DNA from: Gammaproteobacteria bacterium
GTDB lineage: Bacteria; Pseudomonadota; Gammaproteobacteria; Burkholderiales; SG8-39
Direction: 5' to 3'
Assembly (NCBI GenBank): GCA_041476585.1
Contig: JBGOTT010000003.1
Coordinates: 1-38,068 of the forward strand
Length of the DNA: 38,068 bases
Shown: piece by piece, positions 12,953-30,405 of the stretch
Numbering within the stretch: position 1 is the first letter of the stretch
Layout of the letters: each line of letters begins with the position of its first letter
Position numbers and translations under genes: made by a program
The notes under the pieces: model-generated
Told to the model about the DNA's origin: nothing
Databases searched by the model: none
What the model saw: the letters and a program-made list of their open reading frames with translations, nothing else

Positions 12953-13744
12953 ATGACGGTGAAACCGGCAAAAATCGTGGCCGTCAAATCGGCGGATCGG
13001 GTGCTCGACCTGCTCGAGCTGCTCAGCCGGAAGGCAAAACCGTTATCGCATAGGGAAATCGCCCTGGCGCTTGGCATCCCCAAAAGCAGTCTGACCCAGT
13101 TGCTGCGCAACCTGATCGGCAGGGGCTACCTCACGTTCGCGCCGGGGCCGGGCACCTATGCGCTCGGACCTTCGGTCTTCGCGCTGCTGCGGCAGCGGGA
13201 CGGGAACCTCGACCTGATCCCCATGGCGCGGCCCATCGTGGAACGGCTCACCGCCGCGACGCACGAGTCCTCTGCGCTGAGCCTATTCCGCAACGACTAC
13301 GTCGAGCGCGTGTGCGGCGTGGATTCCCCGCAGGCGCTCACGTACCGAATGACGGTCGGCACGCGCTTTCTGCTGTACTCATCGTCGATCGGCAAGGCTG
13401 TCCTCGCTGCTCTGCCGGAAGAGGAGCGCGAGCGCTATTTGGCGCGCGTGAAGCTTGTGCCGAAAACGGAGACGACCGTGAAATCGATCGCGGAGCTGCG
13501 GCGCCAGCTCGCGAAGGCCATGAAGGAAGGGGTCGCTTATTCGCATGGCGAGCACATGCCGGGCGTGTCGGCGATCGCGATAGCGGTCCGTCGACCCGAC
13601 GGCTATCCGGTCGGCGCCCTCAACGTCGCGATTCCAAGCGTCCGCTTTGCGGCTTCGCTGAAGGCGCTCTGCGTGCGGGAGCTGCACGCGGCGCGCAGCG
13701 CGCTCGAGCGCGAGATACCCGAAGATTTCGCGCCGCCGAAGTGA
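12953..13744 (+). CDS. IclR family transcriptional regulator
   Basis: VKSADRVLDLLE...LGIPKSSLTQLL HTH, SSIGKAVLA, GVSAIAIAV; GGGAG RBS before the ATG at 12953. Confidence 0.93.
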   Translation: MTVKPAKIVAVKSADRVLDLLELLSRKAKPLSHREIALALGIPKSSLTQLLRNLIGRGYLTFAPGPGTYALGPSVFALLRQRDGNLDLIPMARPIVERLTAATHESSALSLFRNDYVERVCGVDSPQALTYRMTVGTRFLLYSSSIGKAVLAALPEEERERYLARVKLVPKTETTVKSIAELRRQLAKAMKEGVAYSHGEHMPGVSAIAIAVRRPDGYPVGALNVAIPSVRFAASLKALCVRELHAARSALEREIPEDFAPPK

Positions 13745-13754
13745 AGATGCGCGT

Positions 13755-13815
13755 GCGCGCTTGACGGCGATTGCGGCCCGAGTTCATAATTATAATGGCG
13801 TTCATATCCGTGAAC
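13755..13815 (+). promoter_or_regulatory. Sigma70 promoter plus palindromic operator, copy 1 (probably the IclR site)
   Basis: TTGACG (13761), 18 bp, CATAAT (13785); operator GTTCATATCCGTGAAC at 13800-13815. The same layout recurs at 19335-19395. Confidence 0.75.
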
Positions 13816-13942
13816 AGCACTTTTCGATTCCATGCTTCACAGGCCGGGGACTTTCGCAAGCTCGCGCCGAAGGGCGTCGCCGCCAGCGGCTTCGGTGCCG
13901 CTGGCTCAGCCCACCTATGACCACTCACAAGCGGAACCGCAT

Positions 13943-15118
13943 ATGAGCATGACGATGGCGAAATTGGGAATGGGTTTGCTCCTGGCGCTGGGTCTAGGCG
14001 CTGCGGCCGCCGACACCGTAAAGGTCGGCGTGATCATGTCTTCGTCGGGTCCGTTCGCGCGCTGGGGCGAGCAGTTCCGGCAGGCAATCGAGGTGTACCA
14101 GAAGCAGCACGGCAAGACCGTGAAAGGCAACACCATCGAGGTGATCTACCGCGACGACGGAGGGCCCAATCCGGTGCGCGCCAAGCAGCTCGCCGAGGAA
14201 CTGATCCTGCGCGACAAGGTGCAGTTCCTCGCCGGCTTCGTGTTCACGCCGAACGCGCTGGCAGTCGCCGATCTGATCACCGAGGCGAAGATGCCGACGG
14301 TCATCTTCAACGCGGCCACCGGCATGATCACCCGTAAGTCGCCGTACTTCGTGCGCACCAGCCACACGATTCCGCAAGCGGCGGTCCCGATCGGGCAGTG
14401 GGCGGCGAAGAACGGCATCAAGCGAGTCGTGACTGCGGTCTCGGACTACGCGCCCGGCCACGACGCCGAGGTCTACTTCAGCAAGGCCTTCAAGGCCGGC
14501 GGCGGCGAGGTGCTCGAGTCGATCCGCATCCCGCTGTCGACGAACGACTTCTCGCCCTTCTTCGAGCGCATCCTGCAGCAGAAGCCGGATGCGGTATTCG
14601 TCTTCGGCCCGGGCGGTCCGCCGACCGTCGGCCTGATCAACACCTGGGCTTCGCGCCTGAAGCCCGCGGGAATCAAGTTCCTCGGCACCGCCGAGACCCA
14701 GCAGATCGACCTGCCCAAGATCGGGCGCGCCGCGCTCGGCGTGGTGACCTCCTTCCACTACACCGAGACGGTAGACAACCCACTTAACAAGGCGCTGTGG
14801 GCGGACTTGCAGCAGATGTTCGGCAAGGACACGGTGCCCGATCTCGCCTCGGTCGGCGCATATGACGGCATGCACCTCATTTACAAGGCGGTCGAGAGGT
14901 TCGGCCCGCGCCCCACCGGCGACCAGGCGCTGGGCCTGTGGAAGGGAGTGGCTTTCGACAGCCCGCGCGGACCCGTCCGGATCGACGAGAAGACCCGCGA
15001 CATCGTCGAGAATATCTACATGCGCCGCGTCGAAGAGCGCGACGGCCAACTCGTCAACGTCAACTTCCAGACTATCCCGATGGTCAAGGACCCGTGGAAA
15101 GAGGAGAACCCGGAGTAG
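13943..15118 (+). CDS. Liv/HAAT-type ABC transporter substrate-binding protein
   Basis: Signal peptide after MSMTMAK, TVKVGVI, FTPNALAVA, SDYAPGHDAE, SPRGPVRIDEKTRDIVENIY. Start could be 13943, 13949 or 13955. Confidence 0.92.
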   Translation: MSMTMAKLGMGLLLALGLGAAAADTVKVGVIMSSSGPFARWGEQFRQAIEVYQKQHGKTVKGNTIEVIYRDDGGPNPVRAKQLAEELILRDKVQFLAGFVFTPNALAVADLITEAKMPTVIFNAATGMITRKSPYFVRTSHTIPQAAVPIGQWAAKNGIKRVVTAVSDYAPGHDAEVYFSKAFKAGGGEVLESIRIPLSTNDFSPFFERILQQKPDAVFVFGPGGPPTVGLINTWASRLKPAGIKFLGTAETQQIDLPKIGRAALGVVTSFHYTETVDNPLNKALWADLQQMFGKDTVPDLASVGAYDGMHLIYKAVERFGPRPTGDQALGLWKGVAFDSPRGPVRIDEKTRDIVENIYMRRVEERDGQLVNVNFQTIPMVKDPWKEENPE

Positions 15119-15178
15119 CTCTCGCGCGCCCCGGGTCGTGCCCGACCTGACGCTCCGCAACCGCCGACCGGCCCGGCG

Positions 15179-16042
15179 ATGAGTGCGCTCACCGTCGTTC
15201 TCGACGGCGTCGCCTATGGAATGGTGCTGTTCATCATCTCCGTGGGGCTGACGGTCACGATGGGACTGATGCGCGTGGTGAACCTCGCGCACGGCGCCTT
15301 CGCGATGATCGGTGGTTACGTCGCGGCGGTCGCGCTCGGCGCGGGCGTGCCGTTTCTCGCCGCGGCGCTCGGTGCGACGCTGGTGGCGGGGCTCACGGGG
15401 GCGCTCGCCGAAGCGCTGATCTACCGGCCGCTGTATCGCAAGGGCGAGCTGGCGCAGGCGCTGATGACCTTCGGCTTCACCTTTGTCGTCATCGCCGCGC
15501 TGACGGCGGTCTTTGGCTCGAACATCAAGGCGCTGCCGCTGCCCGGTTACCTCTCCGGACTCGTCGACATCGGCTATCGCATGTATCCCGCGTACCGCCT
15601 GTTCGTGATCGCGTTCGGCCTCGCGCTCGCGTTTGCGCTGTGGCTGCTGATCGACCGATCGCTGTACGGTGCGCGGCTGCGCGCCGCGGTCGATAATCCG
15701 CGCATAGCGCGTGCCGTTGGCATCGACGTGAACCGCCTGTTCCTGCTGACGTTCGCCGGAGGATGCGCGCTAGCCGGCCTCGGCGGCGTGCTCGGCTCCG
15801 AGCTGCTTCCGCTCGAACCCTACTATGCGCTGCGCTACCTGGTCCTTTTCCTGCTCGTTGTGGGGGTGGGCGGCGTAGGCAATTTCAAGGGTTCGTTCGT
15901 TGCCGCCATCGCCCTTGGCCTGATCGACACGAGTGCCAAGTACTACCTCCCTTCGGCCGCGGCCTATCTGTTCTATGGTGCAGTGCTTGCTCTCTTGCTG
16001 TGGCGCCCCGACGGCCTGATGCCGGCGAGGTCTGCGCAATGA
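15179..16042 (+). CDS. Liv-type ABC permease (LivH-like)
   Basis: GLTVTMGLMRVVNLAHGAFAM, GARLRAAVDN, WRPDGL. Confidence 0.93.
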   Translation: MSALTVVLDGVAYGMVLFIISVGLTVTMGLMRVVNLAHGAFAMIGGYVAAVALGAGVPFLAAALGATLVAGLTGALAEALIYRPLYRKGELAQALMTFGFTFVVIAALTAVFGSNIKALPLPGYLSGLVDIGYRMYPAYRLFVIAFGLALAFALWLLIDRSLYGARLRAAVDNPRIARAVGIDVNRLFLLTFAGGCALAGLGGVLGSELLPLEPYYALRYLVLFLLVVGVGGVGNFKGSFVAAIALGLIDTSAKYYLPSAAAYLFYGAVLALLLWRPDGLMPARSAQ

Positions 16043-17010
16043 CACTGCGGTATGGCGGCTGGGGACATCTCCTGCCGTGGGCGGCGGCGCTCGCGTTCTA
16101 CTTCTTCGGCTCCGATCTGCTCAGCCTGGGCACCAACGCGCTGATCATGGTGCTCTTCGCGCTGTCGCTCGACCTGGTGCTCGGCTACGCCGGCATTATC
16201 ACGATGGGGCACGCGGCGTTTTTCGGTTTTGGCGCCTACGTTGCTGGCGTTTTTTCGATTCACTTCAGCAACGACCCGATCGCCGGACTGCTGCTGGCGA
16301 CCGCGGCCGCCGCGGTCCTCGGGCTGATCACCGGCGCGCTGATCCTGCATACCCGGGGCGTGACGCTAATGATGCTGACGATCGCGATCGGGGCGCTTGT
16401 ACTCGAGGTGGCGAACCACCTTCGCGCAATCACCGGCGGCGACGATGGTCTGCAAGGCATCCGCATTGCGCCGCTGCTGGGGCTGTTTCGGTTCGATCTG
16501 TGGGGACATACCGCCTACCTATATACGCTTGCGGTGCTTTTCGTCTGGTTCCTGCTCGCCTGGCGCATCATGCGCTCGCCGTTCGGCCGTTCGCTCGACG
16601 GCATCAGGCAGAACGTGCGCCGCATGCGCGCGATCGGCACGCCGGTCTGGTGGCGCCTGGTGGCGGTCTATTCGCTGGGCGCGGCGATGGCCGGAACGGC
16701 CGGTGCGCTTTCGGCGCAGACCACGCGCTCGGTCGGGCTGACCGCGCTCGAGCTGCTAACTTCCGGAACGGTGCTGATGGTGCTGATCCTGGGCGGCACC
16801 CGGCGCCTCTACGGCTCATTCGCCGGTGCCGTGGTCTACGTCGTGGTGCAGGATCTCGCCGCGCAGGCCGACCCATTCCGCTGGATGTTCGTGATCGGCG
16901 CGCTGCTGATGGCGGTCGTGCTGTTTCTCGAGAACGGCCTCATGGGGCTGGTTGATCTCGGCGCCGCCCGGATTCGCGCCCTAAGCGGGAGCCGTCGTGA
17001 GCAGCGATGA
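16039..17010 (+). CDS. Liv-type ABC permease (LivM-like)
   Basis: SLDLVLGYAGIITMGHAAFFGFGAY, TGGDDGL, SPFGRSL. The ATG at 16039 overlaps the upstream stop. Confidence 0.93.
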   Translation: MTLRYGGWGHLLPWAAALAFYFFGSDLLSLGTNALIMVLFALSLDLVLGYAGIITMGHAAFFGFGAYVAGVFSIHFSNDPIAGLLLATAAAAVLGLITGALILHTRGVTLMMLTIAIGALVLEVANHLRAITGGDDGLQGIRIAPLLGLFRFDLWGHTAYLYTLAVLFVWFLLAWRIMRSPFGRSLDGIRQNVRRMRAIGTPVWWRLVAVYSLGAAMAGTAGALSAQTTRSVGLTALELLTSGTVLMVLILGGTRRLYGSFAGAVVYVVVQDLAAQADPFRWMFVIGALLMAVVLFLENGLMGLVDLGAARIRALSGSRREQR

Positions 17011-17755
17011 CGCAGTCCTTTCGGTACGGGGCCTGTTCAAGAGCTTCGGCGCGCTCACCGTCGCGCAGGACATCAACCTCGATCTTCCCGGAGGCGCGCG
17101 CATCAGCCTGATCGGGCCGAACGGTGCCGGCAAGACCACTTTTGTCAATCTGCTGACCGGCATGCTGGTTCCAGACGCGGGTCACGTCCGGCTCGACGGC
17201 ATTCCGATCGATCAACTGCTGCCCGAGCAGCGCGTGCGCCGGGGACTGGTGCGCACCCACCAGATCAACACGCTGCTCATGGAGACGTCGGTGCGCGAGA
17301 ACGTGGCAATTGCGGTTGCCGAGCGCGAGCGCATCGGCTGGCGCATGCTGCGCTACGGACCGCGCTGGCGCGCCTGCCTCGACGAGGCGCAGGCGCTGCT
17401 TGCTGCGCTGGGTCTCGGCGGCGACGGTTTGCGGTTGGTGCGCGAGCTGCCCTATGGCAAGCAGCGGCTGCTCGAGATCGCGATCGCCCTGGCGCTGAAA
17501 CCGCGCGTGCTTCTTCTCGACGAGCCGGCGGCGGGCGTTCCCGCTGGTGAAGCCAGGGCAATTCACGACCAGCTCGAGGACCTGCCGGCCGGTGTCGCGA
17601 TCCTGATGATCGAGCACGACATGGACCTCGTCTTCCGCTTCGCGCGCGAGATCGTGGTGATGGTGCAGGGACGCATACTGACGCGCGGATCGCCGTCGGA
17701 GATCGCAAACGACGATCGGGTGCGCGAGGTTTACTTGGGGCGCAGGGCGCGATGA
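16997..17755 (+). CDS. Liv-type ABC ATP-binding protein (LivG-like)
   Basis: GPNGAGKTT, LPYGKQR, LLLDEPAAG, IEHDMDLV, VREVYLG. Confidence 0.93.
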   Translation: MSSDDAVLSVRGLFKSFGALTVAQDINLDLPGGARISLIGPNGAGKTTFVNLLTGMLVPDAGHVRLDGIPIDQLLPEQRVRRGLVRTHQINTLLMETSVRENVAIAVAERERIGWRMLRYGPRWRACLDEAQALLAALGLGGDGLRLVRELPYGKQRLLEIAIALALKPRVLLLDEPAAGVPAGEARAIHDQLEDLPAGVAILMIEHDMDLVFRFAREIVVMVQGRILTRGSPSEIANDDRVREVYLGRRAR

Positions 17756-18471
17756 GCACGGCCGTCGCCCTCGCGCATCTTGTCGCCGGCTATGGCGATA
17801 CGGTCGTGCTGGATGATGTCTCGTTCGAGCTCGCGGCTGGCCGCACGCTTGCGGTCCTTGGACGAAATGGCGTGGGCAAGAGCACGCTGCTCGAGAGCAT
17901 CATGGGGTTTACGACACTCCATTCCGGACAGCTCAGCATGTTCGGCGAGCGTCTCGACGGGGTCGCTACGGACCGCCGCAACCTGCTGGGCGTCGGCTAC
18001 GTGCCGCAGGAGCGCGAGATCTTCCCTTCACTGACGGTGGCCGAAAATCTGCAGGTTGCCGCGCGGCGACGGGGCTGGTCGCTCGCCGACGTGTTCGCGC
18101 AGTTTCCAGCGCTCGCCGACCGACGCAATGCCTCGGGCGGGCGGCTGTCGGGCGGCGAGCAGCAGATGCTTGCGATCGGCCGTGCGCTGGTCGGCGGACC
18201 CAGGTTGCTCCTTCTTGACGAGCCGATGGAAGGGTTGGCACCGATCGTCGTGGATAAGCTCTACGAGGCGCTCGTGCGGATCCGCGACGAGGCCGGCATC
18301 ACGATCATCATCGTCGAGCAGCATGCGGACCTGGCGCTCGCGCTGTCGCAGGAGACGATCGTGCTCGAGCGGGGGCGCATCACCTACCGCGGCGCGAGCG
18401 CCGAGCTCGCGCGGGACGAAGCAACGAAGACGAGATTGCTCGGCGTGGGCGGTACTAGGGAGGCGATATGA
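17752..18471 (+). CDS. Liv-type ABC ATP-binding protein (LivF-like)
   Basis: GRNGVGKST, YVPQEREIFPSLTV, LSGGEQQMLAIGRAL, LLLDEPMEGLAP. Confidence 0.93.
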   Translation: MSTAVALAHLVAGYGDTVVLDDVSFELAAGRTLAVLGRNGVGKSTLLESIMGFTTLHSGQLSMFGERLDGVATDRRNLLGVGYVPQEREIFPSLTVAENLQVAARRRGWSLADVFAQFPALADRRNASGGRLSGGEQQMLAIGRALVGGPRLLLLDEPMEGLAPIVVDKLYEALVRIRDEAGITIIIVEQHADLALALSQETIVLERGRITYRGASAELARDEATKTRLLGVGGTREAI

Positions 18472-19292
18472 CGCTCGAAGCCGGGAAGCTATTCGACGTG
18501 CGGGGGCTTACAACGATAGTCACCGGAGGCGCGAGTGGAATCGGGCTTGCCTGCGCCGAGGTGATGGCGGCCAACGGTGCGCGTATCGCGCTGTTCGACA
18601 GTGATCCCGCGGCGCTCGAATCGGCCGTTCGCACGCTGTCGGCGACTAGCGCCGAAGTGCGGGCCGAGACCGTCGACGTGACAGATCGCGCCGCGCTGGA
18701 GCGCGCCTTCGAGGGCACGGCCGCTACATTCGGACGTATCGACGTAGTGTTCGCCAACGCTGGGATTGGCGGCGGGCCGGGTTTCCTCGCGGGCGACGGA
18801 GCGCGCAATCCGCAGCGCGCGGTCGAGAACATTCCGCACAAGCAGTGGGAGCGCGTGATCGCGGTGAACCTAGGTGGGATCTTCTGGACGATCCAGGCGG
18901 CGGTGCGCCACATGAAGAAACACGGCGCAGGCCGCATTATCGTTACCTCGTCGGTGTCGTCTTTCAAGACCGAGCAGCACGTGGGTACGCCCTACGTCGT
19001 CTCCAAGGCGGGCGTCGCGCACCTTGTCAGACAGGCGGCGCTGGAACTCGCCCGCTACGGCATCACGGTGAACGCAATCGCGCCGGGCCCATTCATCACC
19101 AACATCTCCGGGGGGCGGCTGAAGGATCCTGTCGCGCGGAGGCCTTTCGAGCGTGCGATCCCGATGCATCGCCTCGGCCGTGCCGACGACGTGCAGGGGC
19201 TGGCGCTGTTTCTCGCGTCGCCGGCAGCGAAATACATCACAGGGGCTCAGGTCAACGTGGACGGCGGTTTTTCGCTTGGCGGCGCCGATTGA
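18468..19292 (+). CDS. Short-chain dehydrogenase/reductase (classical SDR)
   Basis: TGGASGIG, ANAG, catalytic YVVSK, VNAIAPG, YITG..VNVDGG. Confidence 0.93.
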   Translation: MTLEAGKLFDVRGLTTIVTGGASGIGLACAEVMAANGARIALFDSDPAALESAVRTLSATSAEVRAETVDVTDRAALERAFEGTAATFGRIDVVFANAGIGGGPGFLAGDGARNPQRAVENIPHKQWERVIAVNLGGIFWTIQAAVRHMKKHGAGRIIVTSSVSSFKTEQHVGTPYVVSKAGVAHLVRQAALELARYGITVNAIAPGPFITNISGGRLKDPVARRPFERAIPMHRLGRADDVQGLALFLASPAAKYITGAQVNVDGGFSLGGAD

Positions 19293-19334: not shown

Positions 19335-19395
19335 GCGCGCTTGACAGCCGCAACCGCGCTTGTTCATAATTATGGCCATGTTCATACTGGTGAAC
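19335..19395 (+). promoter_or_regulatory. Sigma70 promoter plus palindromic operator, copy 2
   Basis: TTGACA (19341), 18 bp, CATAAT (19365); operator GTTCATACTGGTGAAC at 19380-19395. Confidence 0.78.
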
Positions 19396-20242: not shown

Positions 20243-20256
20243 AGGAGAACCAACGC

Positions 20257-21237: not shown

Positions 21238-22638
21238 ATGAGCCAAAAACCAGCACCGGTGCTCGAACCGGGACGCGAAACGCCGGTCCTGGGCGAGTAC
21301 GAAGTCGTGGTCCTGGGCGGTGGACCGGCGGGAATCGTCGCCGCCGCGGCCGCCGGGCGCACCGGCCGCTCCACGATCCTGATCGAGCGCTACGGGTTCC
21401 TGGGCGGTGCCGGGACCGCCGCGGGCGTGACCAACTTCTGCGGCCTGCACGCCAACGTCCACGGCGAGCACAAGCGCGTCGTGCATGGGCTGTCCGACGA
21501 ATTCACCGACCGGATCGATCGCCTGGGCGGCCTGAATGCGCCGCACGTGTCGCTCGCGGGCAAGATCACCGCGCAGGCCTACGACACCTCGGCCTACAAG
21601 ATTGCCGCCGACGAGTTCCTGGCCGCCTCCGGGGTGAAGGTGCTGTTCCACGCGTTCGGCGTGGGGATGACCAAGCGCTCCGAGCGCGAGATCGACACGC
21701 TGCTGATCGAAAGCAAGTCCGGGCGCCATGCCATCCGGGGCCGCATGTTCATCGAATGCTCCGGCGATGGTGACCTCGCGGCCTGGGCGGGCGCCCCGTT
21801 CGAGCTTGGCGACGGGGCAGGCAACATGCTCTATCCCTCCACCAATTTCCGCATCAGCGGAGTCGATCCGGTCAAGGCGGGCCGCGCCTGGGAAATCATT
21901 CCCAAGCTGATGGAGGAAGCGGAAAAAAAGGGCCGGCGCTTCCCGCGCAAGGGCGCGCTGGTGCGGCCGCAGAAAAACCCGATCGAGTGGCGCGCCAACG
22001 TCACGCAGATCAAGAATCCCGACGGCTCTGCGGTGAGCGGCATCGACGTCGAGCAGTTGAGCTACGGCGAGGTCGAGGGACGCCGCCAGTGCTGGGACGT
22101 GTTCGAGTTCATCAAGGGCGTGACGCCGGGGTTCGAGAACGCGTATATCGTCGAGATCGCACCGCAGATCGGCATACGCGAGACGCGCCGTATCGTCGGC
22201 GAATACATGTTGTCGGAGAGCGATATTCTCGAGTGCGCGAGCTTTTCCGATTCGATCGGCGTCAACGGCTGGCCGGTGGAGGCGCACGTTTCCGGCGCCG
22301 TGCTGCTCAAGTTCCCGAAGATCCCGGAATCCCGCGGATTCAACCAACTTCCCTACCGCATGATCGTTCCGTGCGGAATTGACAACCTGTTCGTTGCGGG
22401 CCGTTGCGCTTCCATGACGCACGACGGCCAGTCCTCGTCGCGCGTCTCGGGTCCGTGCTTCGCCATGGGGCAGGCCGCCGGCACGGCCGCGGACATGGCG
22501 CTAGGCGCCGGCGTCAAGCCGGCAAACGTTGACGTGCCGTCGTTGCAGCGCCGGCTGGTGGCGGACGGCGCGTACCTGGGCGACGACGGCGCGAGCGCCA
22601 CCGCGCGCACGCAGGAGAAGGCCGCTGCGCCCGCGTGA
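21238..22638 (+). CDS. FAD-dependent oxidoreductase (FAD_oxidored-type), substrate unknown
   Basis: VVVLGGGPAG, ERYGFLGG, IECSGDGDLAAWAG, GIRETRRIVGEY, PYRMIVP, NLFVAGRCAS, MGQAAGTAA. Confidence 0.88.
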   Translation: MSQKPAPVLEPGRETPVLGEYEVVVLGGGPAGIVAAAAAGRTGRSTILIERYGFLGGAGTAAGVTNFCGLHANVHGEHKRVVHGLSDEFTDRIDRLGGLNAPHVSLAGKITAQAYDTSAYKIAADEFLAASGVKVLFHAFGVGMTKRSEREIDTLLIESKSGRHAIRGRMFIECSGDGDLAAWAGAPFELGDGAGNMLYPSTNFRISGVDPVKAGRAWEIIPKLMEEAEKKGRRFPRKGALVRPQKNPIEWRANVTQIKNPDGSAVSGIDVEQLSYGEVEGRRQCWDVFEFIKGVTPGFENAYIVEIAPQIGIRETRRIVGEYMLSESDILECASFSDSIGVNGWPVEAHVSGAVLLKFPKIPESRGFNQLPYRMIVPCGIDNLFVAGRCASMTHDGQSSSRVSGPCFAMGQAAGTAADMALGAGVKPANVDVPSLQRRLVADGAYLGDDGASATARTQEKAAAPA

Positions 22639-22682
22639 ATTCACATCCTCGATCCCGGGCATCTGTGTGATCGGAGGGGCCG

Positions 22683-23969
22683 GTGAGACTGGCTGACGAC
22701 GAAAAAGCCATGCTGGACGGCAAGGAAGGACCGGCCAGGCAAAAGGCGATGGATCTGCTGGTGCGGTACGGTGAAGCGCTCGGCGCGGAACGGCTCATCG
22801 ATACCAACAATGTCTGCGGAACGATGGGCGCCACGATGCCCTTCCTGCGGGATTTCGCCGCGACGCACGGCATGGGGCTCGACGCGGTGTTCTCCGAGTT
22901 CAGCCTCGACAGCGCCGAAGTGGTGGAGATACCCAAGGTCAAGGTCTACAGCTGCCATCTGCAGCAGGGTCTGGACCCGGTTCACGCCGAGCAACAGGGC
23001 ATCGGCCCGCAGGCGGTCAAACTGTACCGCGACGGCGCGGCCTTCTTCGGCGGGCTCGGCGTGCAGCTCCTGAACACCTGCACCCCGTACCAGGTGGGCA
23101 ACGTCCCGGTGAAGGGCGAGCATTGCGCGTGGATGGAATCGTCGGCGGTGATCTACTGCAACTCGGTGCTGGGCGGCCGTACCAACGCAGAGGGGCGCGA
23201 GAGCGCCGGCGCCGCGATGCTTACCGGCAAGATTCCCTATTGGGGATACCACCTGGACGAGAACCGCCTCGGCACTCACCTGGTCGAGCTCGAAGTCGAG
23301 GTCAAGGACACCGCTGATTGGGGACTGCTCGGCTATTACATCGGCGAAGTGGTCCAGGAGCAGATACCCGTCCTGAGCGGCGTGAAGTGCGTCCCCAACC
23401 TCGCGCGGCTGAAACACTTCGGGGCCGCGGCTTCTTCGTCCGGCGGCGTCGAGATGTACCACGTGATCGGCGTGACTCCGGAAGCCCGCAGCCTTGAGGA
23501 TGCGTTCGGCGGGAAGAAGCCAATCACGAAATTCAAGTACGGCCCCGCGGAGCGGAAAATAGCCTACGAGCGGGTCAACTCTACGGGAAAGGACCGCAAC
23601 GTCGACTACGTCATGCTCGGCTGCCCCCATTACTCGCTCGAGCAGATCTGGGAGGTGTGCCAGCTGCTCGAGGGCCAGCGCATCCACGAGAACTGCAGCT
23701 TGTGGATCTTCACGCCGGGCGCGATCAAGCAGGTCGCGGACCAGAACGGCTACACGAAGATCATCGAAGACGCCGGGGGTTTTCTGATGACTGATACCTG
23801 TTCGGCGGTCGGCCGCGTGCTACCGAAGGGCGCGAAGATCGCGGCCGTGGACTCGGCCAAGCAGGCGCATTACCTACCCGCCATCATGGGCGTGCAGGCG
23901 TGGTTCGGCACGACGTTCGAGTGCGTCCAGGCGGCGATCACCGGGCGCTGGTCGGGCGGGCTGCGATGA
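22683..23969 (+). CDS. Aconitase X catalytic (large) subunit, DUF521
   Basis: EKAMLDGKEG, TCTPY, AWMESSAVIYCNSVLGGRTN, GKIPYWGYHLDENR, LKHFGAAASSSGGVEMYHVIGVTPEA, LGCPHYS, DTC. Confidence 0.9.
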   Translation: MRLADDEKAMLDGKEGPARQKAMDLLVRYGEALGAERLIDTNNVCGTMGATMPFLRDFAATHGMGLDAVFSEFSLDSAEVVEIPKVKVYSCHLQQGLDPVHAEQQGIGPQAVKLYRDGAAFFGGLGVQLLNTCTPYQVGNVPVKGEHCAWMESSAVIYCNSVLGGRTNAEGRESAGAAMLTGKIPYWGYHLDENRLGTHLVELEVEVKDTADWGLLGYYIGEVVQEQIPVLSGVKCVPNLARLKHFGAAASSSGGVEMYHVIGVTPEARSLEDAFGGKKPITKFKYGPAERKIAYERVNSTGKDRNVDYVMLGCPHYSLEQIWEVCQLLEGQRIHENCSLWIFTPGAIKQVADQNGYTKIIEDAGGFLMTDTCSAVGRVLPKGAKIAAVDSAKQAHYLPAIMGVQAWFGTTFECVQAAITGRWSGGLR

Positions 23970-24385
23970 ACAAGATCGTGCTGCGCGGCAGGAAGGTGGT
24001 GGGTGGGTGCGCCGAGGGCGAAGCGCTCGTCACCACGCACCGGATTTCCGGCTGGGGCGGGATCGACCCGAGGACCGGGATCATCATCGAGACGCGGCAC
24101 GAGCTGCGCGGCCAGAGCTTCAAGGGGAAGGTGCTAGTGTTTCCGGGCGCGAAGGGCTCGTCGGGATGGTCGAGCCAGTTTCACATCGCGCGGCTCGCGG
24201 GAGCGGCGCCGCTCGCCATGCTCTTCAACGAGATGACGACCAAGATCGCCCTCGGCGCGGTGGTCACGCACGCTCCCGCAGTGACCGATTTCGATCAGGA
24301 CCCGCTGCAGGTCATCGCCACCGGCGACTGGGTCAGGGTGGACGCCGACAACGGCACCGTCGAAGTGACCAAGAAGAGCCGGTGA
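23966..24385 (+). CDS. Aconitase X swivel (small) subunit, DUF126
   Basis: GCAEGEALV, ISGWGGIDPRTG, HELRGQSFKGKVLVFPGAKGSS, TGDWVRVDADNGTV. ATGA-coupled to the large subunit. Confidence 0.9.
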   Translation: MNKIVLRGRKVVGGCAEGEALVTTHRISGWGGIDPRTGIIIETRHELRGQSFKGKVLVFPGAKGSSGWSSQFHIARLAGAAPLAMLFNEMTTKIALGAVVTHAPAVTDFDQDPLQVIATGDWVRVDADNGTVEVTKKSR

Positions 24386-24407
24386 ATCCTCCGGATTGGA
24401 GTCGCGC

Positions 24408-26081
24408 ATGAGCAGGAAACTTCGCAGCAACTTCGAGCGCGGCACCTCGCGCTGGGCGGTGCGCCGCTCGCAATGGAAGGCGCTCGGCCTGACCGACGAG
24501 GACATGGAGAAACCGAAAATTGCGGTCGTCAACACCTCCTCGGAGCTCTCGAGCTGCTTCAGCCATCTCGACGGCGTGGCGGCGGAGGTGAAGGTAGCGA
24601 TCCGCGCCGCGGGCGGATTGCCCTTCGAGGTGCGCACTGCGGCGCCGAGCGATTTCATCACCAGCGCGGGCCACCGCGGCGGATACATCCTGCCGACCCG
24701 CGACCTGATCGTGAACGACATCGAGGTCGCCGTCGAAGGGGCGCTGCTCGACGGCATGGTGTGCCTCGCCTCGTGCGACAAGACCACGCCGGGGCAGATC
24801 ATGGCGGCGGCGCGCCTCAACATCCCGACGATCGTAGTGATCTGCGGCTATCAGCGCAGCGGCGAGTACGAGGGCAAGCACGTCGACATTGAGGACGTGT
24901 TCCTCAGCGCCGGGCATGTGGCCGCCGGCAGGATCACCGTCAAGGACCTGACCGGCATGTCCGACAACGCCGTGCTCGGGCCGGGCGTGTGCGCCGGCAT
25001 GGGCACGGCGAATTCCATGCACATCGTGTGCGAAGCGCTCGGCATGGCGCTGCCGGGCAGCGCCCCCGTCCTCGCGAACAGCGCGAAGATGATGGAGCAC
25101 GTGCGCCGCGCCGGAGAAAGGATCGTCGCGATGATCTGGGAAGATCTCAAGCCCAGGTATATCCTGACGAAGGAAGCCTTCGCCAACGCCGTGATGGCGA
25201 TCTTGAGCCTGAGCGGCTCGATCAACACGGTCAAGCACCTGCAGGCCATCGCCGTCGAGGCAGAGTGCGACGTGGACGTCTACGGCCTGTTCGAGCACTA
25301 CGCCGACAGGATCCCGCTGCTCGCCGCGATCCGTCCCAACGGCGAGCACCTGATCGAAGACCTCGAGGCCGCCGGCGGCGCGCGGGCGGTGATGAAACGG
25401 CTCGAGCGATTCCTGCACGCGAGCGCGCGGACGGTGACCGGGCAGACGGTGCGCGAGATCCTGCGCGACGTCGTGGTGCCGGAGCAGGATGTCGTCCGCA
25501 CGGTGGACGACCCGCTGTCGAGAAGGCCGTCCATCGTGATCGTCCGGGGCTCGCTTGCGCCGGAGACCGGCATCGTCAAGCTCGGCGTCGGCGATACCCG
25601 CACGCTGCAGTTCTCCGGTCGCGCCAACGTCTATCACTCCCGCGAGGCCGCCCTGCAGGGGCTGGCGAAAGGCGAGATCACGCGCGGCCAGGTGGTGGTG
25701 CTCAGAGGCATGGGTACGAAGGGCGGCCCCGGCATGGCCATGGCCTCCGCGCTGGTGTTCGCTCTCGACGGGGCCGAATTGAGCGAGCACGTGGCGGTGG
25801 TGACCGACGGGCAGTTGTCGGGGCTCGTCAACCGCGGCCTGGTGGTCGGCGAAGTCCTGCCGGAGGCCGCGGAAGCCGGCCCGCTGGCTCTGGTGGAGAA
25901 CGGCGACCTGATCGTGATCGACGTCGAGAAGCGGGTTGTCAACCTCGAAGTGCCGCAAACCGAGCTCGCGGCGCGGCGCTCGCGCCTGCACAAGCTCGTG
26001 TCGCCGGATGAGAAGGGTTGGCTTTCGATTTACCAGCGCACCGTCCAGCCGCTGTCCAAGGGCGCAGTGCTTCGCAAATGA
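24408..26081 (+). CDS. IlvD/Edd family dehydratase (divergent paralogue)
   Basis: KPKIAVVN, SCDKTTPG, GVCAGMGTANSM, EALGMALPG, GSLAPETGIVK, GGPGM, TDGQLSG, PEAAEAGPLALVENGD. Confidence 0.9.
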   Translation: MSRKLRSNFERGTSRWAVRRSQWKALGLTDEDMEKPKIAVVNTSSELSSCFSHLDGVAAEVKVAIRAAGGLPFEVRTAAPSDFITSAGHRGGYILPTRDLIVNDIEVAVEGALLDGMVCLASCDKTTPGQIMAAARLNIPTIVVICGYQRSGEYEGKHVDIEDVFLSAGHVAAGRITVKDLTGMSDNAVLGPGVCAGMGTANSMHIVCEALGMALPGSAPVLANSAKMMEHVRRAGERIVAMIWEDLKPRYILTKEAFANAVMAILSLSGSINTVKHLQAIAVEAECDVDVYGLFEHYADRIPLLAAIRPNGEHLIEDLEAAGGARAVMKRLERFLHASARTVTGQTVREILRDVVVPEQDVVRTVDDPLSRRPSIVIVRGSLAPETGIVKLGVGDTRTLQFSGRANVYHSREAALQGLAKGEITRGQVVVLRGMGTKGGPGMAMASALVFALDGAELSEHVAVVTDGQLSGLVNRGLVVGEVLPEAAEAGPLALVENGDLIVIDVEKRVVNLEVPQTELAARRSRLHKLVSPDEKGWLSIYQRTVQPLSKGAVLRK

Positions 26082-26101
26082 ACATGGAAAGATAATCGAT
26101 C

Positions 26102-27100
26102 ATGAGGATTTCCTTCGCTGCAATGATTCGCCGCAATGCGTGGACAGCCGCCGCTGTCGCCGGCCTGGTCTGCGGTCTGTCGGTGTCGGCGGGCGCGTCG
26201 GCACAAGGCTTTCCGACCAAACCGATTCACCTCATCGTACCCAACGCCCCGGGCGGAGCGATCGATATCCTGGCGAGGACACTTTCAGTGCACCTGCAGG
26301 CCTTCTGGGAGCAGCCGCTCGTCGTGGAGTACAAGCCCGGCGCCGGCACGATGCTTGGGACCGACTTCGTCGCGAAGTCGGCTCCCGACGGCTATACGCT
26401 GGGTATGGTGATCACCGGGCACATGATCAATCCGAGCTTGCGCACGAACATGCCCTTCGACACCGTGAAGGATCTATCGGGCGTGACCATGCTCGGGATT
26501 GCGCACATCCTGATCTCCGCCACCCCCTCGTTCGAGGCGAAGAGCATCGCGGAGCTCATCGCGCTGGCGAAGAAGCAGCCCGGAAAGATTAGCTACGCAT
26601 CGCCGGGCAGCGGCAGCTCGATGCATCTGGCGGGAGAGTTGCTGAAAACCATGTCCGGCATCGATCTGCTGCACATCCCGTACAAAGGCAGCGGACCCGC
26701 GTATCCGGATGTCATCGCGGGCCGCGTCCCGCTCCTGATCGACCCGTTGTTTTCCTCGATGAGCTACGTCAAGGGCGGGCGGCTGAAGCCCATCGCGGTA
26801 ACCAACCCCGCGCGCGCCTCGATCGCGCCCGAGATACCTACGGTCGCCGAAACCATCCCGGGGTTCAGCGTTCAGAGTATCTTCGGCATCGTCGCCCCGA
26901 GCCAAACGCCGCACGAGCTTGTGCGCAAGATCAGCGCCGACATCGTTAGCGTGTTGCGCGTTCCGGAAGTGAAGGCGCGTATGGTCGAGCTGGGAATGGA
27001 GACGGTCGGCAATACGCCGGAGCAGTTCGACGCCTACATCCGCACGGAAATCGACAAGTGGGCGAAGGTTGTCAAGGCTTCGGGGGCCAAGGTCGACTAG
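26102..27100 (+). CDS. Bug/TctC substrate-binding protein
   Basis: FPTKPIHLIVPNAPGG, KPGAGTMLG, APDGYTL, HIPYKG, KWAKVVKASGAKVD. Confidence 0.94.
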   Translation: MRISFAAMIRRNAWTAAAVAGLVCGLSVSAGASAQGFPTKPIHLIVPNAPGGAIDILARTLSVHLQAFWEQPLVVEYKPGAGTMLGTDFVAKSAPDGYTLGMVITGHMINPSLRTNMPFDTVKDLSGVTMLGIAHILISATPSFEAKSIAELIALAKKQPGKISYASPGSGSSMHLAGELLKTMSGIDLLHIPYKGSGPAYPDVIAGRVPLLIDPLFSSMSYVKGGRLKPIAVTNPARASIAPEIPTVAETIPGFSVQSIFGIVAPSQTPHELVRKISADIVSVLRVPEVKARMVELGMETVGNTPEQFDAYIRTEIDKWAKVVKASGAKVD

Positions 27101-30404: not shown

Positions 30405-30405
30405 G

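What the first reader, a model, noticed from the sequence alone, without database searches (positions are those of the whole stretch)
12953..27100. Candidate undescribed catabolic pathway: racemase/isomerase + FAD oxidoreductase + split aconitase X + atypical IlvD/Edd + SDR
Seen: 14 intact co-oriented genes with tight or overlapping junctions, a shared operator and three solute receptors (one ABC SBP, two Bug). Known: the characterised aconitase X enzymes are cis-3-hydroxy-L-proline dehydratase and archaeal phosphomevalonate dehydratase, and IlvD/Edd enzymes dehydrate 2,3-dihydroxy acids. No proline racemase/epimerase, pyrroline-carboxylate reductase, mevalonate kinase or other ilv genes are in the window. 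Inference: a CoA-independent route for a small hydroxy or unsaturated (di)carboxylic acid, using epimerisation or cis-trans isomerisation, two different Fe-S (de)hydration steps and two redox steps. The substrate cannot be read from the sequence.
Basis: partly seen in the sequence, partly recalled or inferred. Interest (0 to 1): 0.75.

Follow-up and report, generated by a model that had tools for sequence, protein, structure and literature searches.

The report
Orphan aconitase-X, flavoenzyme, IlvD catabolic regulon
A soil and sediment betaproteobacterium carries a repressor-controlled gene cluster for importing and breaking down an unidentified organic acid, probably an aromatic one, built around an iron-sulfur "aconitase X" enzyme whose reaction matches neither of the two known for that family.

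Summary
Fourteen intact, co-oriented genes lie at 12944-27100. A 33-nt operator occurs exactly twice, each copy on a promoter-like site, splitting the cluster into an importer+SDR unit and an enzyme unit.

The 14-gene set does not recur as a whole. Its heart does: a PF12831 flavoenzyme beside split AcnX in 72 of 80 related loci, plus an IlvD paralogue in 56 of 80, across beta- and alphaproteobacteria and Bacillota. The racemase (2 of 80) and SDR (6 of 80) are local additions.

The AcnX keeps the three cluster cysteines and the carboxylate/hydroxyl residues of archaeal phosphomevalonate dehydratase. Both phosphate-binding asparagines are replaced by Phe and Leu, and the amine-binding Asp of hydroxyproline dehydratase is absent. 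It is therefore neither known enzyme.

Transporters point to an aromatic acid rather than a small aliphatic (di)carboxylate. The ABC receptor is about 50% identical to structures I recall as 4-hydroxybenzoate binders, and nine loci use aromatic-acid/H+ symporters. The substrate remains unknown, and I found no paper describing this module.

This scan has noted the same module on other DNA (e1-5233439, e1-4005108, e1-2247004).

The parts
12944..13744 (+). IclR-family regulator, presumed repressor of both units
   Evidence: PF09339 + PF01614. Below every NCBIfam cut-off; best is PcaR/PcaU/PobR subfamily at 115 bits against 284.75. Orthologues (77-78% identity) occur only in L003 and L008, which also carry the GTTCA-N6-TGAAC site.
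13761..13815 (+). Promoter-like site P1 (TTGACG-18-CATAAT) overlapped by operator copy 1 (13783-13815)
13832..15118 (+). ABC substrate-binding protein (Peripla_BP_6). The likely true start is the ATG at 13943, which precedes a signal-peptide-like stretch.
   Evidence: PDB 4f06, 4evs and 4ey3 at 348-359 bits, about 50% identical over roughly 358 residues.
15179..16042 (+). ABC permease 1 (BPD_transp_2)
16039..17010 (+). ABC permease 2 (BPD_transp_2), ATGA overlap with permease 1
16997..17755 (+). ABC ATPase 1 (LivG/UrtD-like)
17752..18471 (+). ABC ATPase 2 (LivF/UrtE-like)
18468..19292 (+). SDR oxidoreductase, last gene of unit 1. Accessory, not conserved with AcnX.
   Evidence: Found in 6 of 80 loci, 1 at 50% identity or more.
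19341..19395 (+). Promoter-like site P2 (TTGACA-18-CATAAT) overlapped by operator copy 2 (19363-19395)
19433..20242 (+). Two-cysteine AMDase/maleate-isomerase-family racemase or isomerase. Accessory.
   Evidence: PF17645 at 137 bits. Below the AMDase (132 against 225) and EutA (136 against 318) cut-offs. Cys in 'CTAGS' and in 'SCTG'. Found in 2 of 80 loci.
20239..21216 (+). Bug/TctC-family solute receptor 1
21238..22638 (+). PF12831 FAD-dependent oxidoreductase, the variable partner of AcnX
   Evidence: 364 bits. It is the only full-length PF12831 protein in the genome. A PF12831 gene lies within 7 kb of AcnX in 72 of 80 loci, at a median of only 31% identity.
22683..23969 (+). Aconitase X large (catalytic) subunit, predicted [4Fe-4S]
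   Evidence: PF04412 at 382 bits. PDB 7cnr_A at 199 bits against 7cnp at 140. Residue mapping is given in the report.
23966..24385 (+). Aconitase X small (swivel) subunit, ATGA overlap with the large subunit
   Evidence: PF01989. PDB 7cnr_B at 101 bits. Overlap read.
24396..26081 (+). IlvD/Edd-family dehydratase paralogue (not the housekeeping IlvD)
   Evidence: TIGR00110 at 500 bits against 618. It is 36% identical to the genome's bona fide IlvD on contig C209, which scores 640.6. Present in 56 of 80 loci at a median of 60% identity.
26102..27100 (+). Bug/TctC-family solute receptor 2
   Evidence: PDB Bug proteins at 165-213 bits.

Best explanation
The region is an IclR-controlled regulon of two co-oriented transcription units that import and convert a free carboxylic acid, most likely an aromatic one (benzoate- or phenylpropanoate-like), without CoA activation.

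- Unit 1 (P1) encodes a Liv-type ABC importer and an SDR.
- Unit 2 (P2) encodes a two-cysteine racemase/isomerase, a Bug receptor, a PF12831 flavoenzyme, a split aconitase X, an IlvD-family dehydratase and a second Bug receptor.

Shown:
- the gene content
- the twin operators
- the recurrence of flavoenzyme + AcnX (+ IlvD paralogue) with interchangeable importers and regulators
- the misfit of the AcnX to both characterised AcnX activities

Inferred:
- AcnX is a [4Fe-4S] enzyme. It adds water to, or removes it from, C2-C3 of a 3-hydroxy acid or 2-enoate that has an apolar, probably ring-bearing, tail.
- The flavoenzyme is the substrate-specific front-end redox step feeding AcnX, for example desaturation of the saturated acid to the enoate.
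- The IlvD paralogue turns a 2,3-dihydroxy acid of the same series into the 2-oxo acid.
- In this genome only, the SDR oxidises a hydroxyl and the racemase/isomerase corrects the stereo- or cis/trans-isomer.

The identity of the substrate is not established.
For: Regulon:
- The 33-nt operator occurs twice, with 0 expected, each copy on a promoter-like site.
- It is unique in the genome.
- A related GTTCA-N6-TGAAC site lies next to the orthologous IclR in L003 and L008, and in none of the other 78 loci.

Core module, within 7 kb of AcnX-L:
- AcnX-S: 77 of 80 loci.
- PF12831 flavoenzyme: 72 of 80 (52 of the 55 loci with at least 5 kb on both flanks), 70 on the same strand.
- IlvD paralogue: 56 of 80 (44 of 55).
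- The loci include Variovorax, Burkholderia/Paraburkholderia, Ramlibacter, alphaproteobacterial MAGs, Paenibacillus and Halalkalibacter.

Variable front end:
- Median identity to the window protein is 67% for AcnX-L and 60% for IlvD, but 31% for the flavoenzyme.
- Importers vary: ABC, Bug, TRAP, MFS.

AcnX chemistry (alignment read against PMC8184944, section 'Binding of MVA5P'):
- TkAcnX Cys110/283/342 correspond to C133/C314/C373.
- Glu129/Ser130/Ser131 correspond to E152/S153/S154; Lys361 to K393; Tyr365 to Y397. All are invariant among 11 homologues.
- The phosphate binders change: Asn53 becomes F54 (invariant) and Asn79 becomes L93.
- In the small subunit, Leu27(S) becomes Trp.

Aromatic lead:
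- The ABC receptor scores 348-359 bits, about 50% identity, to PDB 4f06/4evs/4ey3. I recall these as the R. palustris benzoate-derivative receptors.
- RPA0985 binds 4-hydroxybenzoate with a thermal shift of 29.5 C (PMC3223731, passages).
- Four MFS proteins from L015 and L010 hit the aromatic acid/H+ symporter family best (326-337 bits), then PcaK and MhpT. This MFS type is in 9 of 80 loci.
- VanA/LigXa-type Rieske oxygenases are in 5 of 80 loci, including the Bacillota locus L070, which also has a PaaK-like ligase.

IlvD: a canonical IlvD exists elsewhere in the genome. The window copy keeps the aligned Cys54, Cys127-Asp-Lys, Cys199 and the TDGxxSG serine.
Against: - No enzyme in the cluster is tied by sequence to any aromatic substrate.
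- There is no ring-cleavage or ring-hydroxylating enzyme among the 14 genes.
- At 50% identity the receptor's ligand may differ. The MFS scores lie below the family cut-off (418.55).
- Bug receptors are the commonest neighbour (51 of 80), and TRAP systems also occur. Both also carry aliphatic di- and tricarboxylates.
- The IlvD paralogue is closest to true dihydroxy-acid dehydratases, which act on small branched aliphatic acids.
- The flavoenzyme's role is unproven. Fold searches gave only generic FAD-fold matches (Foldseek TM 0.47 or less; VIA Z 17-21 for FixC, urocanate reductase, geranylgeranyl reductase, Thi4, KstD and many others).
- Many of the 80 loci are close relatives (about 25 are Variovorax), so the counts overstate the number of independent events.
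- LigB-type dioxygenases (21 loci) are confined to that clade.
Confidence: 0.6

Rival explanations
1. The cluster is a CoA-independent route for a small aliphatic hydroxy or unsaturated (di)carboxylic acid, for example methylsuccinate to mesaconate/citraconate to citramalate, a tartrate isomer, or isovalerate to 3-methylcrotonate to 3-hydroxyisovalerate to 2,3-dihydroxyisovalerate to 2-oxoisovalerate. The flavoenzyme acts as desaturase, the maleate-isomerase-like protein as cis/trans isomerase, AcnX as hydratase and IlvD as the final dehydratase.
For: - Bug receptors lie in 51 of 80 loci and TRAP DctM in 8 of 80.
- The IlvD paralogue scores best against dihydroxy-acid dehydratase models and structures.
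- The nearest characterised AcnX acts on a 3-hydroxy-3-methyl acid (PMC8184944).
- TauD-family dioxygenases in 18 of 80 loci could supply a 2-hydroxyl.
- The racemase-like protein also hits maleate isomerases at 55-59 bits.
Against: - The only importer with a close solved relative resembles what I recall as 4-hydroxybenzoate binders.
- The MFS importers in 9 loci are of the aromatic-acid type.
- Rieske O-demethylase-like genes lie nearby in 5 loci.
- A dicarboxylate would be expected to keep polar or basic residues where F54 and L93 now sit.
- The isomerase is present in only 2 of 80 loci, so it cannot be a general step.
Confidence: 0.25
2. The flavoenzyme does not act on the substrate. It is an electron-transfer or maintenance partner of the oxygen-sensitive Fe-S AcnX, and the cluster is a looser assembly of a dehydratase pair with unrelated neighbours that share one regulator.
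For: - The best VIA match is the FixC/EtfX electron-transfer flavoprotein (Z 21.0, 312 residues aligned).
- The flavoenzyme is almost always next to AcnX, whatever the other neighbours are.
Against: - A dedicated partner would be expected to co-evolve with AcnX. Instead it falls into subfamilies only 26-35% identical to the window's, while AcnX stays at 60-86%.
- L011, L013 and L032 each carry two paralogues.
- The FixC match is within 2-3 Z units of dozens of unrelated FAD enzymes.
Confidence: 0.1
3. It is a variant of an already known AcnX pathway: cis-3-hydroxy-L-proline catabolism (AcnX type I/IIa) or a bacterial phosphomevalonate dehydratase.
For: - The NCBIfam LhpI model gives the best named hits for both subunits (226 and 69 bits).
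- Some database records name homologues 'phosphomevalonate dehydratase'.
- A UbiD-family gene lies at 35423-36832.
Against: - The LhpI scores are far below the cut-off of 700.
- The amine-binding Asp203 of AtAcnX is Met48 or Gly49 here, depending on the alignment.
- Phosphate binders Asn53 and Asn79 are Phe and Leu (with PMC8184944).
- There are no proline racemase, Pyr2C reductase or mevalonate kinase genes in the window.
- No UbiD homologue occurs in any of the 80 related loci.
Confidence: 0.03

Closest known systems
AcnX type IIb, archaeal mevalonate-5-phosphate dehydratase (Thermococcus kodakarensis TK1249/TK1248, PDB 7cnr/7cns; Aeropyrum pernix enzyme)
   Same: - Split large and small subunits.
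- Best solved match for both subunits (199 and 101 bits).
- Three cluster cysteines are conserved, as are the Glu-Ser-Ser, Lys and Tyr residues that hold the carboxylate and the C3 hydroxyl.
   Different: - Phosphate-binding Asn53 and Asn79 are Phe54 and Leu93.
- Small-subunit Leu27 is Trp and Val64 is Gly.
- The context is bacterial and catabolic, with importers and a repressor.
- There is no UbiD/UbiX partner in the related loci and no mevalonate pathway genes.
[quoted passage not shown]
   Same: - Same Pfam families.
- Bacterial and catabolic.
- A Trp at the small-subunit position that stacks on the substrate ring in AtAcnX.
   Different: - Weaker match (140 and 60 bits).
- NCBIfam equivalog scores of 226 and 69 against 700.
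- The Asp that binds the ring nitrogen is absent.
- The cysteine pattern is that of type II ('GCPH' cysteine present).
- There are no hydroxyproline-pathway neighbours.
AcnX type IIc-IIf (Watanabe et al. 2021, PMC8184944): bacterial two-subunit subclasses described as having no landmark residue of either known activity and not characterised
   Same: The description fits: bacterial, split, and lacking the landmarks of both activities.
   Different: I could not assign the window protein to a particular subclass. The supplementary figure that lists the members was not readable as text.
Dihydroxy-acid dehydratase IlvD and the sugar-acid dehydratases of the IlvD/Edd family
   Same: Full-length two-domain match. 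The aligned Cys/Asp/Lys/Ser positions are conserved against the genome's own IlvD.
   Different: - Below the IlvD cut-offs (500 against 618; 533 against 644).
- 36% identical to the real IlvD of the same genome.
- Even further from the arabinonate, xylonate and 6-phosphogluconate dehydratase models.
- Forms its own orthologous group that travels with AcnX.
Tricarballylate utilisation TcuABC (flavoprotein dehydrogenase makes cis-aconitate, which aconitase then hydrates); recalled, not tested here
   Same: The same logic of a flavoenzyme producing an enoate on a free acid, followed by an aconitase-superfamily hydratase and a dedicated importer.
   Different: TcuA belongs to a different FAD family. 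The NCBIfam TcuA model hits only the N-terminal 32 residues at 19.6 bits. There is no TcuB-like membrane partner. AcnX is not a canonical aconitase.

Membership tests
Aconitase X (PF04412 + PF01989) | Full-length match of the catalytic and swivel domains over Pfam gathering scores | tested here: met
   382.1 bits against 31.5, and 87.8 bits against 27
AcnX type IIb mevalonate-5-phosphate dehydratase | Three cysteine ligands of the [4Fe-4S]/[3Fe-4S] cluster (Cys110, Cys283, Cys342 of TkAcnX-L) | tested here: met
   C133, C314 and C373 align and are invariant in 11 homologues
AcnX type IIb mevalonate-5-phosphate dehydratase | Side chains that bind the 5-phosphate (Asn53, Asn79 of TkAcnX-L) | tested here: not met
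   They align with Phe54 and Leu93 (residue roles from PMC8184944 passages)
AcnX type IIb mevalonate-5-phosphate dehydratase | Pathway context: UbiD-type anhydromevalonate-phosphate decarboxylase and mevalonate pathway genes | tested here: not met
   A UbiD-family gene lies 8.3 kb downstream, beyond an opposite-strand operon. No UbiD homologue occurs in the 80 related loci.
[quoted passage not shown] | NCBIfam equivalog NF051439 over its cut-off | tested here: not met
   226 bits (large) and 69 bits (small) against 700
[quoted passage not shown] | Asp203 of AtAcnX, which contacts the substrate nitrogen | tested here: not met
   It corresponds to Met48 via TkAcnX Ala47, or to Gly49 in the direct phmmer alignment. 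Neither mapping gives an Asp.
[quoted passage not shown] | Neighbouring hydroxyproline genes (proline-racemase-like epimerase, pyrroline-2-carboxylate reductase) | tested here: not met
   None among the scanned window ORFs
Dihydroxy-acid dehydratase IlvD (TIGR00110 equivalog) | Score over the curated cut-off, and being the genome's biosynthetic copy | tested here: not met
   500.3 against 618.15. The copy on contig C209 scores 640.6 and 786.2, over both cut-offs. The genome gives 7 PF00920 matches.
IlvD/Edd superfamily | Both domains, and conserved Cys / Cys-Asp-Lys / Cys / Ser positions | tested here: met
   PF00920 at 340.5 bits and PF24877 at 178.6 bits. The positions align with the genome's IlvD. 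That these positions are the cluster, Mg and catalytic residues is recalled, not tested.
Arylmalonate decarboxylase | NCBIfam NF052327 over its cut-off; Gly at position 74 with a single catalytic Cys188 | tested here: not met
   132.2 bits against 225. The position aligned to residue 74 is Cys ('CTAGS'). The best PDB match, 3ixm, itself carries Cys there and also shows Cys in 'SCGG'. That wild-type AMDase has Gly74 is recalled.
Asp/Glu-racemase-superfamily two-thiol racemases and isomerases (including maleate isomerase) | Two cysteines at the paired catalytic positions | tested here: met
   Cys in 'CTAGS' and in 'SCTG'. PF01177 at 32.3 bits against 31. Specific membership of the maleate isomerases is only weakly supported (55-59 bits).
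Benzoate-derivative-binding Peripla_BP_6 receptors (RPA0985 group) | Close full-length similarity to the solved 4-hydroxybenzoate-binding proteins; conserved ligand-contact residues | tested here: inconclusive
   About 50% identity over roughly 358 residues. The ligand-contact residues could not be checked because the structural paper (PMC3836681) is not held. That 4evs is RPA0985 is recalled.
PF12831 FAD-dependent oxidoreductases | Full-length Pfam match | tested here: met
   364 bits, positions 1-416 of 416. I know of no characterised member close enough to name a reaction. The best PDB sequence match is 33 bits over the N-terminal ~100 residues only.

The most novel reading that the evidence does not exclude
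The flavoenzyme-AcnX-IlvD module is a widespread, CoA-independent counterpart of beta-oxidation for the side chains of plant- and lignin-derived aromatic acids. A family of PF12831 desaturases makes aryl-substituted 2-enoates on the free acid. A new [4Fe-4S] AcnX activity, a cinnamate-type enoate hydratase, adds water. An IlvD paralogue converts the aryl-2,3-dihydroxy acid to the arylpyruvate. This would be a third AcnX reaction and a new IlvD/Edd substrate class.
Probability: 0.15. Interest if true: 0.85.

Novelty: new variant of a known kind. Interest (0 to 1): 0.6.

Why it matters
Aconitase X has only two assigned reactions. Watanabe et al. (PMC8184944) list four bacterial two-subunit subclasses with no function.

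This work defines one such orphan group by its anatomy: cluster and carboxylate/hydroxyl residues kept, phosphate and amine binders lost. It shows an obligate flavoenzyme partner and a frequent IlvD partner. It also gives a testable substrate class and a defined operator-repressor pair.

At least 579 species-level genomes carry a relative. Near-identical DNA turns up in sediment, soil, permafrost and peat metagenomes from 19 studies. The unknown compound is therefore probably a common environmental organic acid.

Solving it would annotate hundreds of clusters in Burkholderia, Paraburkholderia and Variovorax, and might reveal CoA-free chemistry useful for upgrading aromatic acids.

Tried and rejected
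**Literature**
- 'aconitase X': 10 papers.
- 'AcnX' anywhere: 52 papers, 25 listed.
- 'DUF521': 3 papers.
- COG1679/COG1786/DUF126/PF04412/PF01989: 41 papers, 30 listed.
- Four-term search for IlvD + FAD oxidoreductase + aconitase + aromatic acid: 0 papers.
- Phenylglycerate / 3-hydroxy-3-phenylpropionate / cinnamate hydratase terms: 16 papers, none on bacterial catabolism.
- By their titles and abstracts, none of the listed papers describes this module. I opened only the two Watanabe papers.
- The structural paper on the benzoate-binding receptors (PMC3836681) is not held.
- The supplement of PMC8184944 that lists the AcnX subclasses could not be read. Subclass assignment and receptor pocket residues therefore stay open.

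**Flavoenzyme**
- AlphaFold2 model: pLDDT 80.1, pTM 0.87.
- Foldseek against the PDB ranked geranylgeranyl-reductase-like proteins and aromatic hydroxylases first, at TM 0.47 or less.
- The VIA wide search gave Z 16.5-21 for about 50 unrelated FAD enzymes.
- The protein atlas gave only generic names.
- None of these discriminates a reaction type.

**UbiD link to AcnX:** rejected.

**Second AcnX pair of the genome (contig C20):** 30% identical and in a different context. It is not part of this system.

**Public runs**
- RNA-library contigs from two soil metatranscriptomes of a single study lie on parts of the SDR, racemase, Bug, AcnX and IlvD genes, at about 95-98% identity.
- These are contigs of relatives, DNA carry-over cannot be excluded, and they show neither transcript ends nor levels. 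I do not count this as evidence of expression.
- The depth spikes at 16973-18463 are cross-mapping on conserved ABC ATPase motifs.

**Error on my side:** my first pick for the second permease was the wrong frame, corrected.

**Gene caller:** my simple GC3-based gene caller missed or mis-stranded some genes, including AcnX-S in many loci. The counts reported therefore come from tblastn, not from the called genes.

Full report
**1. What is there**

ORF listing and Pfam/NCBIfam scans confirm 14 intact + strand genes between 12944 and 27100:
- an IclR regulator
- a five-gene Liv-type ABC importer: Peripla_BP_6 receptor, two BPD_transp_2 permeases, two ATPases
- an SDR
- an AMDase/Asp_Glu_race-family protein
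- a Bug (TctC) receptor
- a PF12831 FAD oxidoreductase
- aconitase X large and small subunits
- an IlvD/Edd dehydratase
- a second Bug receptor

My first choice of frame for the second permease was wrong (no hit). The frame starting at the ATG at 16039 is a permease. It overlaps the stop of the first permease as ATGA. The same overlap joins the two AcnX genes at 23966-23969.

None of the NCBIfam rows shown for the 14 proteins reaches its curated cut-off. Nothing here is an equivalog of a named enzyme.

**2. Regulation**

The two larger intergenic gaps each hold a sigma-70-like site:
- TTGACG-18-CATAAT at 13761-13790
- TTGACA-18-CATAAT at 19341-19370

Each is overlapped by the same 33-nt element, TTCATAATTAT-N6-GTTCATA-N3-GTGAAC, at 13783-13815 and 19363-19395. 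There are two matches in the window against none in 100 shuffles.

Across the 4.15-Mb assembly the exact 16-mer core is found only at these two places. The five one-mismatch matches lie elsewhere.

Among the 80 related loci, a GTTCA-N6-TGAAC site with at most one mismatch is present only in L003 and L008. In both it lies beside the orthologous IclR gene (77-78% identity) and upstream of the racemase-led operon.

It defines two units: importer+SDR, and racemase through Bug2. Both are presumably repressed by the IclR protein. That the IclR binds the element is inferred.

**3. Does the cluster recur?**

AcnX-L has thousands of homologues (4031 with E of 0.001 or less among the 8000 candidates scored). 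The listed ones are 72-98% identical. Where named at all they are called only "aconitase X", "DUF521" or "predicted aconitase", once "phosphomevalonate dehydratase".

The best 80 loci (60-86% identity) were kept. Counts by tblastn within 7 kb of AcnX-L:

| Neighbour | Loci (of 80) | Loci with 5 kb or more on both flanks (of 55) | Note |
|---|---|---|---|
| AcnX-S | 77 | 55 | |
| PF12831 flavoenzyme | 72 | 52 | 70 on the same strand |
| IlvD paralogue | 56 | 44 | |
| Bug | 51 | 42 | |
| IclR-type | 37 | 34 | only 2 at 50% identity or more |
| SDR | 6 | 4 | only 1 at 50% identity or more |
| ABC components | 2-3 | 1-2 | |
| Racemase | 2 | 1 | |

L004 carries a 74%-identical copy of the ABC receptor 9.7 kb away.

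The 14-gene set is therefore particular to this lineage. The heart, flavoenzyme + AcnX and usually the IlvD paralogue, is general. It occurs in Variovorax, Acidovorax, Ramlibacter, Burkholderia, Paraburkholderia, Glaciimonas, two alphaproteobacterial MAGs, two Paenibacillus and a Halalkalibacter.

These loci are not independent samples. About 25 are Variovorax with one shared layout.

**4. A conserved back end and a variable front end**

Median identity to the window's proteins is 67% for AcnX-L, 75% for AcnX-S and 60% for IlvD. It is only 31% for the flavoenzyme. Just five loci have a flavoenzyme at 50% identity or more.

All the flavoenzymes tested are full-length PF12831 proteins. L011, L013 and L032 each hold two paralogues.

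What surrounds the core changes from group to group:

| Element | Loci (of 80) |
|---|---|
| Porins | 26 |
| LigB-type dioxygenases (one Variovorax-centred group) | 21 |
| TauD-family dioxygenases | 18 |
| LysR regulators | 9 |
| Aromatic-acid/H+ symporter-type MFS | 9 |
| TRAP DctM | 8 |
| VanA/LigXa-type Rieske oxygenases | 5 |

Various SDR, HIBADH-like, aldo-keto reductase, alpha/beta-hydrolase and amidohydrolase genes also occur.

I read this as one conserved pair of dehydratases serving several related substrates. Substrate-specific flavoenzymes and importers feed them. I reuse that reading, and my identity figures are an independent check of it.

**5. What the AcnX can and cannot be**

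Both subunits match the archaeal enzyme (PDB 7cnr) better than the hydroxyproline dehydratase (7cnp):
- large subunit: 199 against 140 bits
- small subunit: 101 against 60 bits

I read the alignment against the residue roles given in PMC8184944 (passages).

| TkAcnX residue | Role | Window residue |
|---|---|---|
| Cys110, Cys283, Cys342 | cluster ligands | C133, C314, C373 |
| Glu129, Ser130, Ser131 | carboxylate / C3-hydroxyl | E152, S153, S154 |
| Lys361, Tyr365 | carboxylate / C3-hydroxyl | K393, Y397 |
| Asn53, Asn79 | 5-phosphate binding | Phe54 (invariant), Leu93 (nearly invariant) |

All the conserved residues in the first three rows are invariant in the 11-sequence alignment.

The Asp203 with which AtAcnX holds the substrate nitrogen corresponds to Met48 via the TkAcnX equivalences in the paper. 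In the direct alignment it corresponds to Gly49. Neither is acidic.

In the small subunit:
- the carboxylate-binding Thr is Ser
- the neighbouring Val is Gly
- Leu27(S) is Trp, the residue type that contacts the ring in AtAcnX

My count along chain 7cnr_B differs by one from the paper's numbering, so I identified these residues by type and neighbours.

The conclusion is partly shown and partly inferred. Shown: the machinery for C2-C3 (de)hydration of a 3-hydroxy acid is intact, and the determinants of both known specificities are gone. Inferred: the distal pocket is apolar or aromatic. This matches the paper's description of subclasses IIc-IIf (no landmark residues, uncharacterised). I could not assign a subclass.

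**6. The other enzymes**

*IlvD-like protein*
- It scores below the IlvD cut-offs (500 against 618; 533 against 644).
- Its orthologues in Variovorax and Burkholderia also score below (452-503).
- The genome gives seven PF00920 matches, some partial at contig ends. One, on contig C209, passes both IlvD cut-offs. The window protein is 36% identical to it.
- The aligned Cys54, Cys127-Asp-Lys, Cys199 and TDGxxSG positions are conserved.
- It is thus an extra, probably active, dehydratase for some 2,3-dihydroxy acid.

*Racemase-like protein*
- It aligns with arylmalonate decarboxylase over residues 66-253.
- It carries Cys at both catalytic positions, the arrangement of two-thiol racemases and isomerases. 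It is below the AMDase and EutA cut-offs.

*Flavoenzyme*
- It has no solved sequence relative beyond the FAD-binding N-terminus.
- Its model (pLDDT 80) matches many FAD enzymes about equally.
- The longest alignments are to FixC and geranylgeranyl-reductase-type proteins. Enoate-acting enzymes (urocanate reductase, fumarate reductase, ketosteroid dehydrogenases) score within 2-3 Z units of the top match.
- This allows, but does not show, a C-C desaturase or ene-reductase role.

**7. Which substrate?**

Nothing identifies it. Three independent kinds of neighbour point the same way.

- *ABC receptor.* It is about 50% identical over its whole mature length to PDB 4f06, 4evs and 4ey3/4eyg/4eyk. 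I recall these as the Rhodopseudomonas palustris benzoate-derivative receptors of Michalska et al. 2012; the paper is not held. RPA0985 of that group binds 4-hydroxybenzoate with a thermal shift of 29.5 C (PMC3223731, passages; also tabulated in PMC6079105). Copies of this importer (52-74% identical) accompany AcnX in L004, L049, L074 and L078.
- *MFS importers.* The MFS importers flanking the core in Burkholderia, Paraburkholderia and Glaciimonas hit the aromatic acid/H+ symporter family best. Scores are 326-337 bits (cut-off 418.55), then PcaK and MhpT, for 4 proteins from 2 loci. This type is in 9 of 80 loci.
- *Nearby oxygenases.* Rieske oxygenases of the vanillate-demethylase or LigXa type lie nearby in 5 loci of three lineages. 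One is the Bacillota locus L070, which also has a PaaK-like ligase and a 4HBT thioesterase.

Two earlier notes of this scan reached a "methoxylated acid" idea on other genomes (e1-4005108, e1-2247004).

Against this:
- Bug and TRAP receptors are unspecific.
- There is no ring-cleaving enzyme in the cluster.
- The IlvD paralogue is nearest to enzymes of small branched acids.
- The genome has 72 Bug matches for 5 TctA matches, so a Bug gene beside an operon says little.

I put about even odds on an aromatic or other ring-bearing monocarboxylate and about one in four on a small aliphatic acid.

**8. How it probably works**

- Step 1, inferred from receptors: uptake by the ABC system and, through TctAB encoded elsewhere, by the two Bug receptors.
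- Step 2, inferred: the flavoenzyme performs the substrate-specific redox step on the free acid, most simply desaturation to a 2-enoate.
- Step 3: the AcnX [4Fe-4S] enzyme interconverts the 2-enoate and the 3-hydroxy acid. The family mechanism and conserved residues are shown; the substrate is unknown.
- Step 4, inferred: the IlvD paralogue dehydrates a 2,3-dihydroxy acid of the series to the 2-oxo acid. Where present, a TauD-type dioxygenase could supply the 2-hydroxyl. In this window the source of that hydroxyl is unexplained.
- Step 5, specific to this lineage: the SDR oxidises a hydroxyl and the two-thiol enzyme corrects configuration.

No CoA ligase, CoA transferase or thioesterase lies among the 14 genes. 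The CoA-transferase and enoyl-CoA hydratase at 3226-5343 lie on the other strand beside a TetR-family gene.

**9. Novelty and verdict**

The family (AcnX) and the kind of system (a repressor-controlled catabolic operon) are known. The specificity, the obligate PF12831 partner and the IlvD partner are not described in any paper that my searches found. The library lacks most subscription journals.

The same module has been noted three times before in this scan on other DNA. I found it here independently, and I add three things: the twin-operator structure, the residue-level exclusion of both known activities, and the transporter-based aromatic lead.

I rate it a new variant of a known kind, with interest 0.6.

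Noticed in passing
G000 contig C20, locus L083:16-6567: A second split AcnX pair in the same genome, only 30-32% identical to the window's. It sits at the end of an operon with a sugar-type ABC importer (SBP_bac_1/8, two BPD_transp_1, ATPase with TOBE) and a glycerophosphodiester phosphodiesterase (GDPD). It is also below the LhpI cut-off (222 against 700). This is another orphan AcnX context.
   Followed up: partly
window 27272-36832: Downstream and unrelated by strand and regulator: an XRE-type regulator, a urocanase paralogue (27893-29542), a short ORF with Flavin_Reduct and Asp_Glu_race pieces (29832-30404, possibly a remnant or fusion), an opposite-strand polar amino-acid ABC importer with a HutI-like amidohydrolase (30406-35034), and a UbiD-family decarboxylase (35423-36832). 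It looks like a separate catabolic locus, possibly for an imidazole- or hydantoin-like compound.
   Followed up: no
window 861-11472: Upstream: two more Bug receptors (861-1823, 2060-3025). An opposite-strand trio of TetR, family III CoA-transferase and enoyl-CoA hydratase (3226-5956). A second complete Liv-type ABC importer (6817-11472). The window is dense in organic-acid uptake genes.
   Followed up: no
window 11107-11799 (- strand): A weak Phage_integrase Pfam hit (28.7 bits against cut-off 27.1) on an ORF that overlaps the ABC ATPase gene on the other strand. It is probably spurious, or at most a remnant.
   Followed up: no
G000 whole genome: 72 TctC/Bug matches against 5 TctA matches (some partial at contig ends). 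This is the 'orphan Bug receptor' expansion that I recall as typical of Burkholderiales.
   Followed up: partly
L008:11996-14549: In the close relative L008, which has the same IclR, racemase, Bug, flavoenzyme and AcnX order, the position after AcnX is taken by an SDR and a UGSC-family protein instead of the IlvD paralogue. IlvD is therefore dispensable for the module.
   Followed up: no
L011, L013, L032: These loci carry two PF12831 paralogues of different subfamilies next to one AcnX pair, together with a TauD-family dioxygenase. They may be clusters that accept more than one substrate.
   Followed up: no
window 12500-27400 in public runs: Near-identical DNA (0-1 differences per contig of about 1 kb) occurs in one sediment metagenome, which may be the source sample. 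Relatives at 90-99% identity occur in soil, permafrost and peat metagenomes. Two soil metatranscriptome libraries of one study hold short contigs, about 95-98% identical, over several genes of unit 2.
   Followed up: partly
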